From a virus (Duplodnaviria; Caudoviricetes), in the IMG/VR virus record IMGVR_UViG_3300034520_000068, positions 1,732-65,731 of that record: a stretch of DNA of 64,000 nucleotides. The stretch is one strand, 5' to 3'. The translations under genes were made by a program, and so were the position numbers. The notes below the pieces were generated by a model. The model saw nothing but the letters and a program-made list of their open reading frames with translations, did not search any database and had not been told where the DNA came from. This document shows, piece by piece, positions 19,664 through 37,829 of this stretch (positions within the stretch are counted from its first letter, which is position 1; each line of letters starts with the position of its first letter).

Positions 19664-19753
19664 GGGCAGGCAGGCAAGCAGGCAGAGGCAGGGAAGGAGG
19701 CTGGGAGGCAGACTGTGGCTGTTGTGGCTGTTGTGGCTGCTGGCGGCTGTGGC
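19664..19753. repeat. GGCA and TGTGGCTGT short tandem repeats
   Basis: ggcaggcaggcaagcaggcagaggca and (tgtggctgt)n seen directly. Confidence 0.75.
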
Positions 19754-19968
19754 ATATAGCTGTGAATCCGTGATAAGTGCAAATACAATACCGAAAAGAG
19801 ACAAAAAAGGTATTGCCGTATCTAGGGCCGTAGCATACGACGATAAATAATACCATGCAGGGGTATGATATACCCTATATGGGTATAGGCAACAGAATGA
19901 TATACCCTGCGGGGGTATCTGGTTTATCTTGGCGAGAAGATACTGATTGTCAACCCTCCCACATTATC

Positions 19969-20180
19969 CGGTTAACAATACACCGCTACGCATTGTCTAC
20001 AATTCGCCATTCATCGGTTGACAATACCATCACCCATATGTCCACCTCTTGCACAATTACGGTTGACAATCCCTGCATAGCGTAGCAAGAGACGGATTGT
20101 ATACACATAACCGCATATCGGTTGACAATTTGATACGATATCGAGTTGTATACCAAAAGCAAAAGAAAGGTTGACAATTG
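19969..20180. repeat. Dispersed GGTTGACAAT repeats
   Basis: Five copies near 19969 (variant), 20016, 20061, 20120, 20170. Confidence 0.7.
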
Positions 20181-20579
20181 GCGCATGGGCTTTGTGGCTT
20201 TCTGTGACCTCCCGTGACTTTCCCGTTGCTTCCTCTGTGCATTTCCCTGCTTCGGCTTGTCGGCTTTCTCTCCTGGCTGCATTTCCGGTCCTTCCGTTTC
20301 TTTTGTGGCTTTTCTTCTGTGGCTGTTCTTCTGTGGCTTTTCTGTATGTTTTTCCGGCCTGCGGCGGCCGTAGTAGTTTTGTGTGCCGGTCCCTTTTCTG
20401 CCTCCCGATGCTCTTCCGGCCCTTCTTCCGATCCCTTGGATGCCGATGCGAAGTCCCGAAAAAAAAATAAAAAAATCCCCAAAAAAATTTTTTTCCGGCA
20501 AAAAGAGTGAATCCCTAAAAGCCTTGATATACCTGTATTTGCGGGAAAAATAATTTTTGAAAAGATTTTTTAAAAGGTA

Positions 20580-29565: not shown

Positions 29566-29730
29566 ATGGAACTGGAATGGGTTCTCTGCCCGCTTTGCGG
29601 AACAAAATTATGTCGGAGGGACCCAGCAGTCAATGTAGAATTTACCGGAATTTACATTGACTGTAAAAAATGCAAGCAACGGATTGAAATAAAACCAGTG
29701 CCAGTACCAGTGCCAGTGCCGGTCACTTAG
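29566..29730 (+). CDS. Com-like / Cys-rich zinc-finger protein (not in ORF track)
   Basis: WVLCPLCGTKL...IDCKKCK..IEI, 54 aa, AAGGGGG RBS. Confidence 0.7.
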   Translation: MELEWVLCPLCGTKLCRRDPAVNVEFTGIYIDCKKCKQRIEIKPVPVPVPVPVT

Positions 29731-29800
29731 TGACTTTGAGTGCCAGTGCCTGTGTCAGTGCCAGTCTAACGTTTTATACGTTATGACTGGCTTTTTATTT
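29695..29800 (+). terminator. CCAGTG/AGTGCC repeats running into an intrinsic terminator
   Basis: About 8 hexamer copies; hairpin GCCAGTC-TAACGT/ACGTTA-GACTGGC-TTTTTATTT. Confidence 0.7.
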
Positions 29801-33770: not shown

Positions 33771-34082
33771 ATGATTCTGAAAGATATATTTGAAGTCCAG
33801 AAAAATCCGGAACTGAAAGCGGAATATGAAAAAACTTACAATGCGCTAAAGGAAAGATTCCCGCTAACTAAAATAGGCTTATTTGATTTAAAAGCTATCT
33901 TTGACAAATGCGAGGATGAACCTGGATATGCACATACAAAATATACCGGCAAAATCAAAGATTATATTGAAATTACTGAGCTGGAACTATCGATGATTTG
34001 TGACAATGGATATATGCATTTTGGCGGCAAAAGCGTAATAAGGCCGGATAAGACGTTTGAGGTTGTGATTTATACGGATTAA
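33771..34082 (+). CDS. Hypothetical protein
   Basis: GGAGG RBS, 103 aa. Confidence 0.65.
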   Translation: MILKDIFEVQKNPELKAEYEKTYNALKERFPLTKIGLFDLKAIFDKCEDEPGYAHTKYTGKIKDYIEITELELSMICDNGYMHFGGKSVIRPDKTFEVVIYTD

Positions 34083-34155
34083 GACGAAAAATATGTTTTA
34101 TCTATATAATCAGGCAATGCAATCAATAACCGAATAAAAAAAGGAGGCAAAACAG

Positions 34156-34437
34156 ATGACCAGTTTTGATGAGATTTTGACAAGAGAATTAGAGTGGAAA
34201 ATCAGAAGCAAAGTCCAACAGGATTTTAATGAGCTTATTGAGGCTTATCGTAAATTTATCCACAAATATGGCATGAATGGAACTGTAGCTGATTTTGAAA
34301 AGATAGAAGAATATACCCTAAAAAGCCTTCCCAAAAGAAACTTTGAAATGTTTCCCGAACTTGAAGAATATTTATTCAAGCAGGAAAGCCAAAAACTTAT
34401 TGATTCTCTGATGAAGAATGGGGAGGCGGGAAAGTAA
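34156..34437 (+). CDS. Hypothetical protein
   Basis: GGAGG RBS; stop overlaps start of next gene. Confidence 0.65.
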   Translation: MTSFDEILTRELEWKIRSKVQQDFNELIEAYRKFIHKYGMNGTVADFEKIEEYTLKSLPKRNFEMFPELEEYLFKQESQKLIDSLMKNGEAGK

Positions 34438-35075
34438 TGGCTAATAACGCTAAAGCATCAGAGCAAATAATTGTTATTCCTGCAATAAATATTAAAAAGT
34501 TTCAAATTACATTAGTTGGCGATAGTCCTCTAATAGTCCATAGATTTGACGAAAAATCAAAAAAACAGATTTTTGATAAACAGACGCAAAAAGCAAAATC
34601 GGGGAAAGAGCCAAAAATTCCAATGCGAGATTTTATTGAAAGTCTTTATTGGTTATCTGGCAAACCAAAAGAATATACAGAAGAAGCTTTTGAGCAGGCT
34701 ATTAAAGAAGGGGCAAGATTCGGATTTCCTGCGATTGCATTTAAGGCATCGGCAGTATCGGCTGGATATAGAGCAGGAGTAACTAAGGACAAGGTAACAA
34801 GCAATGGAGCGTTTCATATTGACGGTGAATTTGTTGAAATTAATGGTATTCCTCAAATGCGTGAAGATATGGTTCGCATTGGCATGGGGACGGCAGACAT
34901 TCGCTATCGTGGCGAGTTTAAGGAGTGGGAAGCTACATTCACAGTAAAATACAATGCAAGTGTTTTCAGTGCAGAGCAAATTATTAATCTTTTTAACCTT
35001 GGCGGTTTCGCTTGCGGCATTGGTGAATGGCGACCAGAAAAAGGCGGTAGTTATGGAATGTATCATGTGAAATAA
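34437..35075 (+). CDS. RAMP/Cas7-like RNA-binding protein (putative effector of GGY-NN array)
   Basis: ITLVGDSPLIVH first strand, FPAIAFKAS, R..EF..W, and C-terminal Gly-rich loop GGFACGIGEWRPEKGGSYGMYHV. Fold is inferred. Confidence 0.65.
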   Translation: MANNAKASEQIIVIPAINIKKFQITLVGDSPLIVHRFDEKSKKQIFDKQTQKAKSGKEPKIPMRDFIESLYWLSGKPKEYTEEAFEQAIKEGARFGFPAIAFKASAVSAGYRAGVTKDKVTSNGAFHIDGEFVEINGIPQMREDMVRIGMGTADIRYRGEFKEWEATFTVKYNASVFSAEQIINLFNLGGFACGIGEWRPEKGGSYGMYHVK

Positions 35076-35079
35076 ATTT

Positions 35080-35280
35080 GACAAGGCAGGCATGGTGAGG
35101 CCGGTCCAGGTTAGGCAAGGTGAGGCGCAGTAGGGCGAGGTTGGGCAGGGCAGGCAAGGCCAGTTGTGGTAGGCGGGGTGATGTTGGGTTAGGTTCGGTA
35201 TGGCAGGGCAGGCGAGGCAAGGCCTGGTATGGCCGGGCATGGCACGGCCGGGCATGGCACGGCAAGGCAGGGCATGGCAA
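35080..35280 (+). repeat. GGY-NN pentamer array, candidate guide ncRNA
   Basis: About 37 pentamers with constant GGC/GGT and variable dinucleotide, broken by GGCA/GGTA tetramers; lies between a stop codon and the next RBS. Confidence 0.9.
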
Positions 35281-35305
35281 GCATAAAAAAAGGAGGTGTA
35301 TATCA

Positions 35306-35782
35306 TTGATTTACAAATGGAAACAAAACCGTTTTCCCGTAGATGCGCAAACAGCAGGAAAAGAATTGGAACGAATTCAGAGCAAATATAACGGGATTTT
35401 GCCATCAGCAGTCGTGGAAGAATCCAGACCAGAGGAAGCAGTATTACATAATTGTTTTAACTGGAATGATGCAGATGCAGCGGGAAAATACAGGGAAATA
35501 CAGGCGAAAGAGATTATAAGGAATATTGTAGTCGTCAAAGTAGATGAAGTTGAAAAGGATATCGTACCTGTAAGGGCATTTGTCAGTGTAGTAAATGAGG
35601 ATGAAGAAAGACCAAAATATATTTCTATCAATAAAGCTATGTCAGAACCAGATTATCAAGAACAAATATTGCAGACCGCACTTAAAGAATTATTGGCTTT
35701 TAAACAAAAATATCAGAGGTTATTACAGTTTAAAAAAGTCTTTGACGCTATAGATGAAGTTCAAGCAGAATTGGCAATGTAA
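35306..35782 (+). CDS. Hypothetical protein, partner of RAMP-like gene
   Basis: AGGAGG RBS, TTG start; P..VVE.SR.....LH..F.W.D..AA..YR..QA..IIR.I motif. Confidence 0.75.
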   Translation: MIYKWKQNRFPVDAQTAGKELERIQSKYNGILPSAVVEESRPEEAVLHNCFNWNDADAAGKYREIQAKEIIRNIVVVKVDEVEKDIVPVRAFVSVVNEDEERPKYISINKAMSEPDYQEQILQTALKELLAFKQKYQRLLQFKKVFDAIDEVQAELAM

Positions 35783-35822
35783 ATGATTTAAAAAGGTAAA
35801 GCAGGAGGCGAAAAAGCGAAAA

Positions 35823-37829
35823 ATGGATATAAAACTAAATTGGTTAAAGCTCAAAAATTTCAAGGGAATTAAGGATTTTACCCTAAAAATTGACGGCAGA
35901 AATGCCAATGTGTATGCGGACAATGGCGTTGGAAAGACCACCCTTGCCGATTCTTTCCTTTGGCTACTTTTCAACAAAGACAGTACCGACCGCACATCAT
36001 TCAAAGTCAAACCTCAAGACGAATACGGTAACGACATTCACCACCTGCAAACCGAAGTCGAAGCCGAACTTTCGGTTGACGGCAAATCGCTAAAACTTCG
36101 CAAGATGTTGGAAGAAAAATGGACGAAGAAGAGGGGAAGTGCCGAAGCCGAACTTACCGGCAACACCATTTCCTACTGGTGGGATGACGTGCCAGTAAAG
36201 GAGAGCGAATACAAGCAGCGCATAAATGAACTCATCAACGAAGGCATATTTCGCATGATTACCAATCCCATGTATTTTAACACCCGTCTGTCATGGCAGG
36301 ACCGGCGCAAGATATTGCTTGAGATGTGCGGAGATATGTCAGACGAGCAGGTCATTGCGTCGGATGCCAGATTATCAAAACTGACGGAGATTCTTCAGGG
36401 TAAAACAATCGAGGAATACAAGAAAATACTTGCCGAGAGAATTAAGCGGCTGGAAAAAGAAAGGGCCGACATTCCACCCCGGATTGATGAACTTACTCTT
36501 TCGCTACCACAGGAGAATACGGATTATTCGGCGGTGGAAGCGGAATTAAAACAGTATAAGAATGAACTTGAAGCCATTGAATTAGGGCTTACAGATGCGT
36601 CAATAATTGCTACAGAATTCAGCAAAAAACAGCAAAAATTATTGCAGTTAAAAAATAAGCTGGTGGATATAAAAGCCAGACTCGATGCCGAAGCCGGAGC
36701 GGATAGAAAGAAGCTTGTTGATGAGAAATCGGCCCTAACGTCACACAAATATCTGCTTGAAACAAGCATAAATGATTTAGAAGCAAATATCGCACGTATA
36801 CAAGCAGGTATAAAAAACAATATGGATTTGCGTGCAAAACTGCTGGATGAATGGAGAGCACTTACGCAAGAAAGGTCCAATATCCTTGCACAAGAATTCA
36901 CAGAACCGAAGGAAAATGAATTTATTTGCCCGACATGCGGTCAGAAGCTCCCTGAAGAAGCAAAAGAGAAGGAAATTGAAAAAATGCGTGCGAGTTTTGA
37001 GGCTAATAAAAATTCTCAATTGATTATAGTTGACGGAAAACTTAAGAACAATAAAATTAATGGCCTTTCAGTAAAGGAAAGCATAGAACTTGCACAATCT
37101 CAAATACAAAAAATGCAATGGGAGCTTGAAGCACGCAAAAAAGAATATGAGGAAGTTATTATCAGGCTTTCAGAAATCGACATAGAACTTGCTAAACCTA
37201 TGCAAGAACCGGACTACAACAGCGATGAAGAATACAACCGCTTGCAGAAGCAGATTGAGGTATTGGAGGCCGGAATTTCACAGCCGGTAGAGGATAAAAC
37301 CAGTGCATTATTGCAACGCAAGCGGGAGATTCAGAGCAAGATTGATGGGTGCAATCGAATCCTGAACAATAGAACGGTAGCCGCAAACACAAAGAAGCGC
37401 ATAGAAGAACTCAAAGCCGAAGAAAAACGGCTTGCACAGCAGGTTGTAGAGTTAGAAGGGCATAAATACCTATGTGAGCAATTCACCGTAGCTAAAGTGA
37501 ATTTGCTTGAGGACAAGATAAACAGCCGTTTCAAGTATGTCAAGTTTAAATTGTTTGAAATGCAACTAAATGGCGGCATAGCGGAAACATGCCAAGCACT
37601 GGTCAATACTAATGGCGTATATGTACCGTTTGATGATGCGAACCATGCGGGGAAGATTAATGCCGGAATCGACATTATCAATTCGCTATGCAGTTACTAC
37701 AACGTCACAGCCCCAATCTTTATAGACTTCCGTGAGAGTGTTAGCAGGATAATTGAAACCAATAGCCAGGTTATAAACCTTGTAAAGAGCGAGCCGGATA
37801 AAACATTGCGGGTGGTGTTGGAAGAATGA
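35823..37829 (+). CDS. SMC/SbcC-like coiled-coil ATPase
   Basis: LKNFKGI, NGVGKTT, central CPTCGQ hook, PIFID..ES. Confidence 0.88.
   Translation: MDIKLNWLKLKNFKGIKDFTLKIDGRNANVYADNGVGKTTLADSFLWLLFNKDSTDRTSFKVKPQDEYGNDIHHLQTEVEAELSVDGKSLKLRKMLEEKWTKKRGSAEAELTGNTISYWWDDVPVKESEYKQRINELINEGIFRMITNPMYFNTRLSWQDRRKILLEMCGDMSDEQVIASDARLSKLTEILQGKTIEEYKKILAERIKRLEKERADIPPRIDELTLSLPQENTDYSAVEAELKQYKNELEAIELGLTDASIIATEFSKKQQKLLQLKNKLVDIKARLDAEAGADRKKLVDEKSALTSHKYLLETSINDLEANIARIQAGIKNNMDLRAKLLDEWRALTQERSNILAQEFTEPKENEFICPTCGQKLPEEAKEKEIEKMRASFEANKNSQLIIVDGKLKNNKINGLSVKESIELAQSQIQKMQWELEARKKEYEEVIIRLSEIDIELAKPMQEPDYNSDEEYNRLQKQIEVLEAGISQPVEDKTSALLQRKREIQSKIDGCNRILNNRTVAANTKKRIEELKAEEKRLAQQVVELEGHKYLCEQFTVAKVNLLEDKINSRFKYVKFKLFEMQLNGGIAETCQALVNTNGVYVPFDDANHAGKINAGIDIINSLCSYYNVTAPIFIDFRESVSRIIETNSQVINLVKSEPDKTLRVVLEE

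What the first reader, a model, noticed from the sequence alone, without database searches (positions are those of the whole stretch)
34437..35782. Candidate phage RNA-guided system: RAMP/Cas7-like gene + GGY-NN repeat RNA + partner gene
Seen: a 212 aa gene, then a few nt after its stop a ~200 nt array of constant-triplet/variable-dinucleotide pentamers, then a strong RBS and a 158 aa gene, all inside the early operon. Established: CRISPR RAMP proteins (Cas7/Csm3/Cmr4) have an N-terminal strand followed by SPL-like residues, a P...hKG helix and a C-terminal Gly-rich loop, and polymerise along guide RNA with a fixed step. This protein shows ITLVGDSPLIVH, FPAIAFKAS and GIGEWRPEKGGSYG in that order. 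Inference: each subunit grips one GGY and presents the NN for pairing, forming a CRISPR-independent guide, plausibly against competing phages or host genes. No cas1, cas6 or CRISPR array is in the window and no nuclease motif is evident, so repression or blocking is more likely than cutting. From memory this resembles recently reported VIPR-type GGY/NN systems; I could not verify that here.
Basis: partly seen in the sequence, partly recalled or inferred. Interest (0 to 1): 0.96.

Follow-up and report, generated by a model that had tools for sequence, protein, structure and literature searches.

The report
Phage VIPR guide-RNA system, staggered array
A temperate phage carries a small Cas7-like protein gene, three five-letter-repeat guide RNAs and a partner gene, a genuine further example of the VIPR RNA-guided DNA-silencing systems first described in 2026, though what its guides are aimed at was not found.

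Summary
A 212-aa gene (34437-35075) is followed after 10 nt by a roughly 200-nt GGY-NN pentamer array (35085-35280), then an RBS and a 158-aa gene (35306-35782). The array has 10 of 10 in-phase GGY per 50 nt, against at most 5 in 50 shuffles.

- A profile of the protein family hits solved SUSP1 Vipr at E=6e-13 and 1.2e-15 by hhalign.
- The GGY-contacting residues are kept.
- The AF2 model (pLDDT 95.6) finds only CRISPR Cas7/Csm3-type RAMPs.
- Of 29 related loci, 27 carry the same-strand array and all 29 carry the partner gene.

The array is the 'staggered' type. It holds three tail-less guides joined by GGCAG|G with a 1-nt overlap. Across relatives the NN positions are near-random and GGY is fixed.

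The partner is unrelated to SUSP1 vap1. No natural target of the three guides was found, and no RNA data exist.

A related phage contig lacks exactly this 1386-nt cassette.

The verdict is a new member of a known kind. This scan has noted such systems 347 times before, on other DNA.

The parts
34437..35075 (+). vipr: 212-aa RAMP (Cas7-like) protein that would polymerise on the guide RNA
   Evidence: The ORF is listed. It matches phrog_4652 at E=4e-24 and no Pfam or NCBIfam family. phmmer against the PDB finds SUSP1 Vipr (36pp_D) at E=1.7e-5; the family profile gives E=6.3e-13; hhalign against SUSP1 Vipr from KT454805.2 gives prob 98.6%, E=1.2e-15 over 172 columns. The AF2 model has pLDDT 95.6. 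Foldseek against the PDB returns 38 hits at E<=1e-3; every listed one is a chain of a CRISPR-Cas complex or a Cmr6 crystal structure.
35085..35089 (+). Leading delimiter GGCAG; its last G is the first G of guide 1
   Evidence: The same GGCAG followed by a -1 shift opens most of the arrays parsed in related loci.
35089..35153 (+). vrRNA 1: 13 pentamers (65 nt) ending in GGCAG. Units 4 (GTCCA) and 9 (AGTAG) are not GGY.
35153..35211 (+). vrRNA 2: 59 nt, with an extra -1 slip at 35172 after GGTAG. It is either two short guides or a guide damaged by a 1-nt deletion.
35211..35280 (+). vrRNA 3: 14 pentamers (70 nt), all GGY. It contains an exact 15-nt duplication and ends in the variant delimiter GGCAA followed by GC.
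   Evidence: (period 15).
35292..35296 (+). GGAGG ribosome-binding site, 9 nt before the TTG start of the partner gene
   Evidence: An AAGGAG-type site closes the intergenic region in most of the related loci parsed.
35306..35782 (+). vap-like partner gene (158 aa), function unknown. The model shows three helices and a beta wing followed by two long C-terminal helices.
   Evidence: It matches phrog_15946 at E=4.8e-19. A homolog lies downstream of vipr on the same strand in 20 of 20 viral loci and 9 of 9 genomic loci. The AF2 model has pLDDT 92. No PDB fold hit reaches E<=1e-3; the weak rows include MarR-type winged-helix proteins. It is unrelated to SUSP1 vap1 (hhalign prob 0.1%).
34436..35821 (+). 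The whole vipr-array-vap cassette (1386 nt), behaving as one presence/absence unit
   Evidence: One 1877-nt contig of run X6 (depth 6.8) joins 34435 directly to 35822. The shorter side of the joint has 77 letters, 5 letters fit on either side, and the flanks are about 90% identical to the window.

Best explanation
This is a VIPR (Viral Interference Programmable Repeat) system sitting in the early rightward operon of a temperate phage.

Proposed mechanism:
- vipr, the array and the partner gene are transcribed together.
- The array is cut, or otherwise resolved, at GGCAG|G into three tail-less vrRNAs of 12-14 pentamers.
- One Vipr protomer binds each pentamer. H35, R158, E197, W198 and R199 clamp the GGY, and the two N bases are presented.
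- The filament reads double-stranded DNA by the published '1-nt skip' code (NNxNNx...) and blocks transcription of a competing mobile element.
- The 158-aa partner assists in a way not yet known.

Shown here: homology, fold, conserved contact residues, array statistics and family-wide synteny.
Inferred from the SUSP1 work: RNA binding, DNA recognition rule and repression.
Unknown: the target, and how staggered arrays are processed.
For: Sequence homology to the solved SUSP1 Vipr:
- phmmer gives E=1.7e-5.
- A 71-sequence profile gives E=6.3e-13, with the next PDB hit at 0.45.
- hhalign gives prob 98.6%, E=1.2e-15, aligning query residues 20-212 to template 3-191.
- tblastn with the C-terminal 86 aa finds phiSUSP1 KT454805.2 at E=2e-4.

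Contact residues named in 10.64898/2026.04.26.720927 (section read) map as follows: H17 to H35 (H in 59 of 71 family members), R138 to R158 (71 of 71), D177 to E197 (E 55 and D 15 of 71), W178 to W198 (53 of 71) and R179 to R199 (71 of 71).

Fold: the AF2 model has pLDDT 95.6 and pTM 0.88. Foldseek against the PDB gives 38 hits at E<=1e-3; every listed hit is a chain of a CRISPR-Cas complex (type III Csm or Cmr, type VII, Cascade) or a Cmr6 crystal structure, and the best is 9ash_F at 2.1e-5.

Array: 10 of 10 in-phase GGY against at most 5 in shuffles.

Family linkage: 20 of 20 IMG/VR loci have an in-phase array (at least 6 of 10) on the vipr strand and none on the other strand. Of 9 genomic loci, 7 have one; one of the remaining two is masked with N and the other has a degenerate array that still carries GGCAGGY delimiters. 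The partner gene is present in 29 of 29 loci.

Staggered grammar:
- 86 of 91 delimiter-bounded segments have a length that is a multiple of 5.
- In 85 vrRNAs from 24 loci (915 units), position 1 is G in 94%, position 2 is G in 82%, and position 3 is C or T in 96% and never G.
- Positions 4 and 5 carry 1.84 and 1.96 bits of entropy, and all 85 NN strings are distinct.

Arrays turn over faster than their genes. For L007 versus L008, vipr is 94.4% identical, vap 96.4% and the array 77.2%, with array lengths of 251 and 394 nt. For L013 versus L014 the figures are 96.6, 97.0 and 83.3%.

The 1-nt skip code seems to operate in this clade. One guide of L022 matches codons 141-150 of the vipr gene of L004 at 19 of 20 NN bases, in frame with x at the wobble position. 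Control skips of 0, 2 and 3 reach at most 0.875. My estimate of the chance of such a match is about 2e-4 for 87 guides against 18.4 kb of vipr DNA.

The array RNA has no fold beyond shuffles (z=-0.75), as expected for a protein-coated guide.

Context: integrase, repressor and anti-repressor lie upstream; RecT, a methylase and DnaD/DnaC-like genes lie downstream.
Against: - No RNA run holds this DNA, so transcription, processing and ends are untested.
- No target was found for the window's three guides.
- Parts of the array look worn. Two of the 13 units of vrRNA 1 are not GGY, vrRNA 2 has a 1-nt slip, and vrRNA 3 carries a 15-nt duplication and ends in GGCAA instead of GGCAG.
- The partner gene has no detectable similarity to SUSP1 vap1, and its fold gave no significant PDB match.
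- The preprint text says only the ribozyme-interspersed and single-vrRNA architectures were confirmed by sRNA-seq, so staggered arrays are not.
- TM-scores to Csm3 and Cas7 are only 0.36-0.53.
- The VIPR type (I-VII) could not be assigned, because the figures and supplements that define the types were not readable.
Confidence: 0.88

Rival explanations
1. The G-rich tract is coding sequence: an Arg/Gly-rich N-terminal extension of the 158-aa protein (GTG ORF 35120..35782, 220 aa), not an RNA array.
For: An open frame runs from 35120 into the partner gene.
Against: The repeat period is 5, with -1 phase shifts, so no peptide repeat would be kept. The tract between vipr and vap in 17 related loci varies from 207 to 731 nt, and it changes far faster than the flanking genes. 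A GGAGG site and a start codon sit just after the array here, and similar sites close the array in most relatives. The alignment of the partner protein begins at the TTG/ATG after the array.
Confidence: 0.02
2. It is a VIPR-like system that targets RNA rather than DNA, for example by blocking or cleaving rival transcripts, like the type III Csm3 proteins that its fold most resembles.
For: The best structural matches are chains of type III-A Csm, type VII and Cmr complexes.
Against: The only relative detectable by sequence among solved structures is SUSP1 Vipr. The preprints report that it binds double-stranded DNA and silences from either strand. In the one strong cross-match found here, and in a weaker one, the targets lie on both strands of vipr genes. 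I did not look for a Csm3-type catalytic Asp.
Confidence: 0.05
3. The neighbouring 668-aa SbcC/Rad50-like ATPase (35823-37829) is the system's effector, so the outcome is target destruction, as proposed for VIPR types III-V.
For: The gene is directly adjacent and co-oriented. It matches AAA_23 and phrog_77 'SbcC-like', and shows weak PADLOC similarity to LmuB, AriA and PtuA.
Against: It is not a conserved neighbour. tblastn finds a relative in only 3 of 20 viral loci, upstream in two of them and as a 52-aa fragment at a locus end in the third. The contig that lacks the cassette keeps this gene. It sits beside RecT and a metallo-hydrolase, an ordinary phage recombination module.
Confidence: 0.05

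Closest known systems
VIPR systems with 'staggered' vrRNA arrays (bioRxiv 10.64898/2026.04.26.720920; Results text and the legend of fig. S18, read as passages)
   Same: The locus has a stand-alone Vipr RAMP, an accessory gene and GGY/NN pentamer guides. Successive vrRNAs share one nucleotide, so the end of one marks the start of the next; here that is GGCAG|G with a -1 phase shift. The system is phage-borne.
   Different: Nothing I could test differs. I could not see the figure or the supplements, so I cannot say whether the GGCAGGY delimiter, the rule that lengths are multiples of 5 (86 of 91) or this partner family are already described there. I also could not assign the type (I-VII).
Type II VIPR of Escherichia phage SUSP1 (KT454805.2; PDB 36pp; bioRxiv 10.64898/2026.04.26.720920 and .720927)
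   Same: The Vipr proteins are homologous. The GGY-contact residues are conserved (H, R, D/E, W, R). Guides hold 11-15 GGY-NN units, and the locus has two genes.
   Different: In SUSP1 each vrRNA stands apart, is followed by a non-repeat stretch of about 40-60 nt, and has no GGCAGGY; the vrRNAs lie upstream of vipr and downstream of vap1. The preprint calls that stretch a tail that forms a pseudoknot. Here three guides abut head to tail between vipr and the partner gene, with no tail and no fold beyond shuffles. The partner is unrelated to vap1. The hhalign alignment shows 19% identity.
CRISPR-Cas class 1 backbone proteins (Cas7: Csm3, Cmr4/6, type VII Cas7, Cascade Cas7)
   Same: The RAMP fold is shared: an RRM core, a Gly-rich loop and a beta-hairpin thumb. 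The logic of one protomer per fixed RNA step is also shared.
   Different: There is no CRISPR array and no Cas1 or Cas6. The step is 5 nt with 2 read bases, not 6 nt with 5. No Cas family model matches at the sequence level.

Membership tests
VIPR | Vipr protein homologous to an experimentally characterised Vipr | tested here: met
   Against SUSP1 Vipr: phmmer E=1.7e-5, profile E=6.3e-13, hhalign prob 98.6% and E=1.2e-15.
VIPR | Minimal RAMP fold with an RRM core, a G-loop and a thumb | tested here: met
   The AF2 model has pLDDT 95.6, a beta-hairpin at 139-161 and the GIGEWRPEKGGSYG loop. Every listed Foldseek PDB hit is a chain of a CRISPR-Cas complex or a Cmr6 structure. I did not superpose the model on the Vipr structure itself, because 36pp is not in the fold library.
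VIPR | Residues that clamp GGY (SUSP1 H17, R138, D177, W178, R179) | tested here: met
   They correspond to H35, R158, E197 (D to E), W198 and R199. In the 71-sequence alignment their conservation is 59, 71, 55 E plus 15 D, 53 and 71 of 71. The equivalent of K33 was not resolved.
VIPR | Adjacent tandem YNNGG/GGYNN repeats (at least 4 units; 9-16 per vrRNA) | tested here: met
   The three guides have 13, about 12 and 14 units. The array is far above chance.
VIPR | GGY conserved and NN hypervariable among relatives | tested here: met
   In 915 units the three constant positions are G 94%, G 82% and C or T 96%. The NN positions carry 1.84 and 1.96 bits, and all 85 guides are distinct. Arrays diverge faster than the flanking genes.
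VIPR | A vipr-accessory gene (vap1-6) in the locus | tested here: inconclusive
   A conserved partner gene is present in 29 of 29 loci, but it is not vap1. Sequences of vap2-6 were not available to me.
VIPR | vrRNAs are expressed and co-purify with Vipr | not testable with these tools
   No RNA run holds this DNA.
VIPR | Targets obey the 1-nt skip (xNN) code | tested here: inconclusive
   For a relative's guide the code fits: L022 against the L004 vipr gene matches 19 of 20, in frame, and exceeds the skip 0, 2 and 3 controls. For the window's own guides no target reaches the preprint's level of 80% or more over the full length.
VIPR | Encoded by a virus or provirus, outside any CRISPR-cas locus | tested here: met
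   The source is a virus record of 65,731 bp with an integrase, a repressor and replication genes. No CRISPR-like repeats and no Cas1 or Cas6 were found.
CRISPR-Cas (class 1) | CRISPR repeat-spacer array plus cas1/cas2 or cas6 | tested here: not met

The most novel reading that the evidence does not exclude
In this clade the tail-less staggered arrays are matured by a route unlike that of SUSP1. Either the Vipr filament itself or the 158-aa partner (unrelated to vap1, always next to the array) would recognise GGCAG|G and set guide length in whole pentamers. The partner would then act as a Cas6-like ruler or processing factor with a different fold.
Probability: 0.15. Interest if true: 0.55.

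Novelty: new member of a known kind. Interest (0 to 1): 0.3.

Why it matters
The locus adds a well-documented VIPR example from a temperate phage whose closest relatives lie in Oscillospiraceae, Ruminococcaceae and Lachnospiraceae assemblies. That is far from the E. coli and Pseudomonas systems studied so far.

It gives a compact test case of 1.4 kb with three guides for two open points.
- How are staggered, tail-less arrays processed? By the preprint's own text this has not been confirmed experimentally.
- What does a non-vap1 partner do?

The family is very large: 3371 representatives at 50% identity with E<=1e-3. The GGCAG|G grammar and the cross-targeting of rival vipr genes seen here may therefore be general. 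It does not change the picture of what VIPR is.

Tried and rejected
Target search for the window's guides, using the 1-nt skip code:
- Own genome: best matches were 17 of 26, 13 of 16 and 17 of 28, no better than skips 0 and 2.
- 269 kb of related loci: nothing for the window's guides except the L030 site that one search had already picked out (20 of 24).
- Exact 10-NN patterns of vrRNA 1 and vrRNA 3 in IMG/VR gave 0 hits each.
- An 11-NN pattern of vrRNA 1 with up to 2 mismatches, searched in 401 genomes of the order of G001, gave 1 hit (20 of 22). I expect about 0.2 by chance and treat it as noise. Five genomes reached by handle gave 0.
- 8-NN seeds of vrRNA 1 gave 40 and 31 IMG/VR stretches.
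  - After full-length scoring the best is 20 of 26.
  - About 17 of them fall in frame on an IDRQYNDAR motif of a roughly 280-aa virion structural protein (phrog_6121).
  - About 14 near-identical ones fall on IERQYKEA in a Mu-F-like minor head protein.
  - The number of independent events is no more than chance would give, and neither reaches 80%. I keep them as leads only.
- A vrRNA 3 seed gave 9 stretches, best 21 of 28. A hypothetical de-duplicated vrRNA 3 gave 1 stretch, 19 of 22, at chance level.
- One metagenome scan gave 1 hit, 21 of 26.

Partner protein:
- No match in Pfam, NCBIfam or PADLOC.
- The profile against PDB sequences found nothing below E=0.065.
- Foldseek against the PDB gave no hit at E<=1e-3.
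- BFVD returned only uncharacterised phage proteins, and the Atlas only unnamed viral clusters.
- Complex prediction of Vipr with the partner returned 'no answer', which is no evidence either way.

Other searches:
- Rfam found no match in 34000-36500.
- The promoter and terminator scan was at shuffle level.
- No RNA holder was listed among sequencing runs.
- A profile-based related-loci run failed for lack of a conserved stretch.
Full report
WHAT IS THERE.

Searches show an ATG ORF at 34437..35075 (212 aa) whose start overlaps the stop of the upstream 93-aa ORF (TAATG). Ten bases after its stop a G-rich tract begins at 35085 and runs to 35280. GGAGG follows at 35292-35296, and a TTG start at 35306 opens a 158-aa ORF that ends at 35782.

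In the tract, GGY recurs every 5 nt in four phase blocks, each shifted by -1 from the last. A scan for in-phase GGY gives 10 of 10 per 50 nt only here. The rest of the window and the minus strand reach 4-5, and 50 shuffles of the window reach 3-5. TRF independently calls period 5 and period 15 at 35200-35279.

THE PROTEIN IS A VIPR.

Pfam, NCBIfam and PADLOC give nothing for the 212-aa protein. PHROGs gives an unnamed family, phrog_4652.

- Against the sequences of solved structures, the single protein hits 'SUSP1 Vipr protein' (36pp_D) at E=1.7e-5 over the C-terminal 56 residues. The stretch includes CGIGEWRP against CGVGDWRP.
- An exhaustive phmmer search found 3371 cluster representatives at E<=1e-3.
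- A 71-sequence alignment of these (A1) hits the same chain at E=6.3e-13, with nothing else below 0.4.
- tblastn with the C-terminal 86 aa finds phage phiSUSP1 itself (KT454805.2, E=2e-4).
- Its annotated 195-aa gene aligns to A1 by hhalign with probability 98.6% and E=1.2e-15, over query residues 20-212 and template residues 3-191.

The cryo-EM preprint (10.64898/2026.04.26.720927, section read) names H17, D177, R138, W178 and R179 as the residues that hold G1, G2 and Y3. In the alignments these correspond to H35, E197, R158, W198 and R199. In A1 they are H in 59 of 71 sequences, E in 55 plus D in 15, R in 71, W in 53 and R in 71.

The AlphaFold2 model is confident (pLDDT 95.6, pTM 0.88). Foldseek against the PDB returns 38 hits at E<=1e-3. 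Every listed hit is a chain of a CRISPR-Cas complex (type III-A Csm, type VII, Cmr, Cascade) or a Cmr6 crystal structure, with TM-scores of about 0.36-0.53. That fold library stops on 2026-04-08 and does not hold the Vipr entry.

THE ARRAY IS A STAGGERED vrRNA ARRAY.

I fetched 20 IMG/VR loci (39-73% identity) and 9 loci from bacterial assemblies. The assemblies are Ruminococcaceae, Oscillibacter, Oscillospiraceae, Lachnospiraceae, Ruminococcus, Selenomonadales, Lactobacillales and one Xanthobacteraceae MAG.

- All 20 viral loci have an in-phase GGY array on the vipr strand and none on the opposite strand. In 18 it starts right after vipr; in two (L017, L019) it follows the partner gene.
- Of the 9 genomic loci, 7 pass the same threshold. 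L021 is masked with N at that place. L026 has a degenerate array that still carries the delimiters.

Parsing the arrays shows one grammar throughout. Each guide ends in GGCAG, and the next guide starts on that last G, which produces the -1 phase shift.

- Of 91 segments bounded by GGCAGGY, 86 have a length that is an exact multiple of 5, between 45 and 95 nt.
- In 85 such guides from 24 loci, with 915 units, the three constant positions are G 94%, G 82% and C or T 96%. The two variable positions carry 1.84 and 1.96 bits.
- All 85 NN strings differ, and guides have 9-19 units with a mode of 11.

[quoted passage not shown] S18, passage seen). The same text says that only the ribozyme-interspersed and single-vrRNA architectures were confirmed by sRNA-seq.

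In the window the delimiters lie at 35085, 35149 and 35207. The last junction is the variant GGCAAGC at 35276. This gives three guides.

- vrRNA 1 (35089-35153) has 13 units, two of them not GGY.
- vrRNA 2 (35153-35211) is 59 nt, with an additional slip after GGTAG at 35172.
- vrRNA 3 (35211-35280) has 14 units and an exact 15-nt duplication.

The array RNA folds no better than shuffles (z=-0.75), and Rfam finds nothing. By contrast, the SUSP1 locus has separate vrRNAs, each followed by a non-repeat stretch of about 40-60 nt, and no GGCAGGY.

THE PARTNER GENE.

A homolog of the 158-aa protein lies downstream of vipr on the same strand in 29 of 29 loci. It belongs to phrog_15946 but to no named family.

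Its model (pLDDT 92) has three helices and a beta wing followed by two long helices. Foldseek gives no PDB hit at E<=1e-3. The weak rows include MarR-type and other winged-helix proteins, with the best at E=0.49. BFVD and the Atlas return only uncharacterised viral proteins.

hhalign against SUSP1 vap1 is null (probability 0.1%). A winged-helix DNA binder would fit what the preprint says of vap genes in types II, VI and VII, but this is a weak inference.

THE THREE PARTS FORM ONE UNIT.

In two pairs of closely related phages, vipr and the partner gene are 94-97% identical, while the array between them is 77-83% identical and differs in length.

Laying public contigs on the locus showed one 1877-nt contig from a wastewater run that joins 34435 to 35822. 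It omits exactly the 1386 nt from the vipr start to the base before the next gene, and its flanks are about 90% identical to the window.

The neighbouring SbcC-like ATPase and RecT are kept in that contig and are not conserved neighbours of vipr elsewhere. I therefore treat them as the phage's recombination module, not as part of the system.

The wider context is a temperate phage. An integrase and a repressor lie on the minus strand. An anti-repressor lies on the plus strand, followed by this cassette, RecT, a methylase and DnaD/DnaC-like loaders. The record is 65,731 bp and about 95% complete.

DOES THE CODE WORK HERE, AND WHAT IS TARGETED?

Only skip 1 gave matches of 0.90 or more.

- The best is a guide of L022, from a Lachnospiraceae assembly. 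It matches codons 141-150 (DMVKVGMGTA) of the vipr gene of L004 at 19 of 20 bases, in frame with the skipped base at the wobble position. I estimate about 2e-4 for such a match by chance among 87 guides and 18.4 kb of vipr DNA.
- The same guide matches its own vipr at 15 of 20 and the window's vipr (34866-34894) at 16 of 20.
- A second, weaker case (16 of 18) lies on the G-loop codons of another vipr gene.

For the window's own three guides I found no convincing target.

- There is no self-match.
- Exact 10-NN patterns have no hit in IMG/VR.
- One 20-of-22 hit in 401 bacterial genomes is at chance level.
- The 8-NN seeds give hits whose best full-length score is 20 of 26.
- One metagenome hit scores 21 of 26.
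- vrRNA 3 reaches at most 21 of 28.

The vrRNA 1 seed falls in frame on an IDRQYNDAR motif of a virion structural protein family (phrog_6121) in about 17 diverged phage contigs. The number of independent events is not above chance, and the match stops after nine codons. I record it only as a lead.

COMPARISON AND VERDICT.

The locus meets every VIPR criterion that can be tested by computation. These are a Vipr homolog with a RAMP fold and conserved GGY-clamp residues, an adjacent GGY/NN array with hypervariable NN, a linked accessory gene, a viral location, and no CRISPR array and no Cas1 or Cas6.

It differs from the studied type II systems in array architecture and partner gene, and it corresponds to the 'staggered' class mentioned in the preprint. 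Expression, processing, binding and the natural target are untested.

This scan has already noted such systems 347 times in at least 196 genomes. The finding is therefore real, correctly read by the first stage, and a new member of a known kind.

Noticed in passing
window 34436-35821, seen through run X6: A related phage contig of 1877 nt joins 34435 to 35822 and so lacks exactly the vipr-array-vap cassette. This is a clean presence/absence polymorphism of the module.
   Followed up: partly
L022:690-744 against L004:1109-1137; window 34866-34894: A guide in a Lachnospiraceae-assembly locus spells the conserved DMV[KR][VI]GMGTA codons of vipr genes. It matches a rival's vipr at 19 of 20, its own at 15 of 20 and the window's vipr at 16 of 20 under the 1-nt skip code. 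The window's vipr may itself be a borderline target of rival systems.
   Followed up: partly
L064, L061, L057, L038, L032 and about 12 further IMG/VR loci: Units 1-9 of vrRNA 1 read in frame as IDRQYNDAR, a conserved motif of a roughly 280-aa virion structural protein (phrog_6121). The wobble bases vary among contigs. The match ends after nine codons (20 of 26) and is at chance level. The window's phage has no homolog of this protein.
   Followed up: partly
window 35231-35260: An exact 15-nt duplication (GGCCG GGCAT GGCAC, twice) lies inside vrRNA 3, probably from recent slippage. A search with the de-duplicated guide found one IMG/VR site at 19 of 22, at chance level.
   Followed up: partly
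window 19942-20178: Four copies of a 38-nt element, 63-100% identical and each ending in GGTTGACAAT or GGTTAACAAT, are spaced 46-104 nt apart. They look like repeated promoter or operator sites near the divergent region at about 20 kb.
   Followed up: no
window 19665-19753, 20297-20343, 29695-29765: TRF reports other short tandem repeats: GGCA about 12 times, TGTGGCTGT about 3-4 times, a 14-mer 3.4 times and the hexamer CCAGTG about 12 times. None has the GGY-NN pentamer pattern.
   Followed up: no
L071-L101 (many): The second vrRNA 1 seed mostly hit a recurrent, out-of-frame conserved element in about 20 unrelated IMG/VR contigs. The translations in the guide's frame contain stop codons, so it is a chance match to some conserved non-coding or other-frame sequence.
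   Followed up: no
L021:2681-2780: The stretch between vipr and the partner gene in this genome contig is masked with N, so its array could not be read.
   Followed up: no
phage records: Full-length Vipr homologs at 25-40% identity occur in 27 Mycobacterium phage records, 5 Gordonia phage records, Cyanophage Cy-LDV1 and Pseudomonas phage LESphi2. All are annotated as hypothetical proteins. I did not examine their arrays.
   Followed up: no
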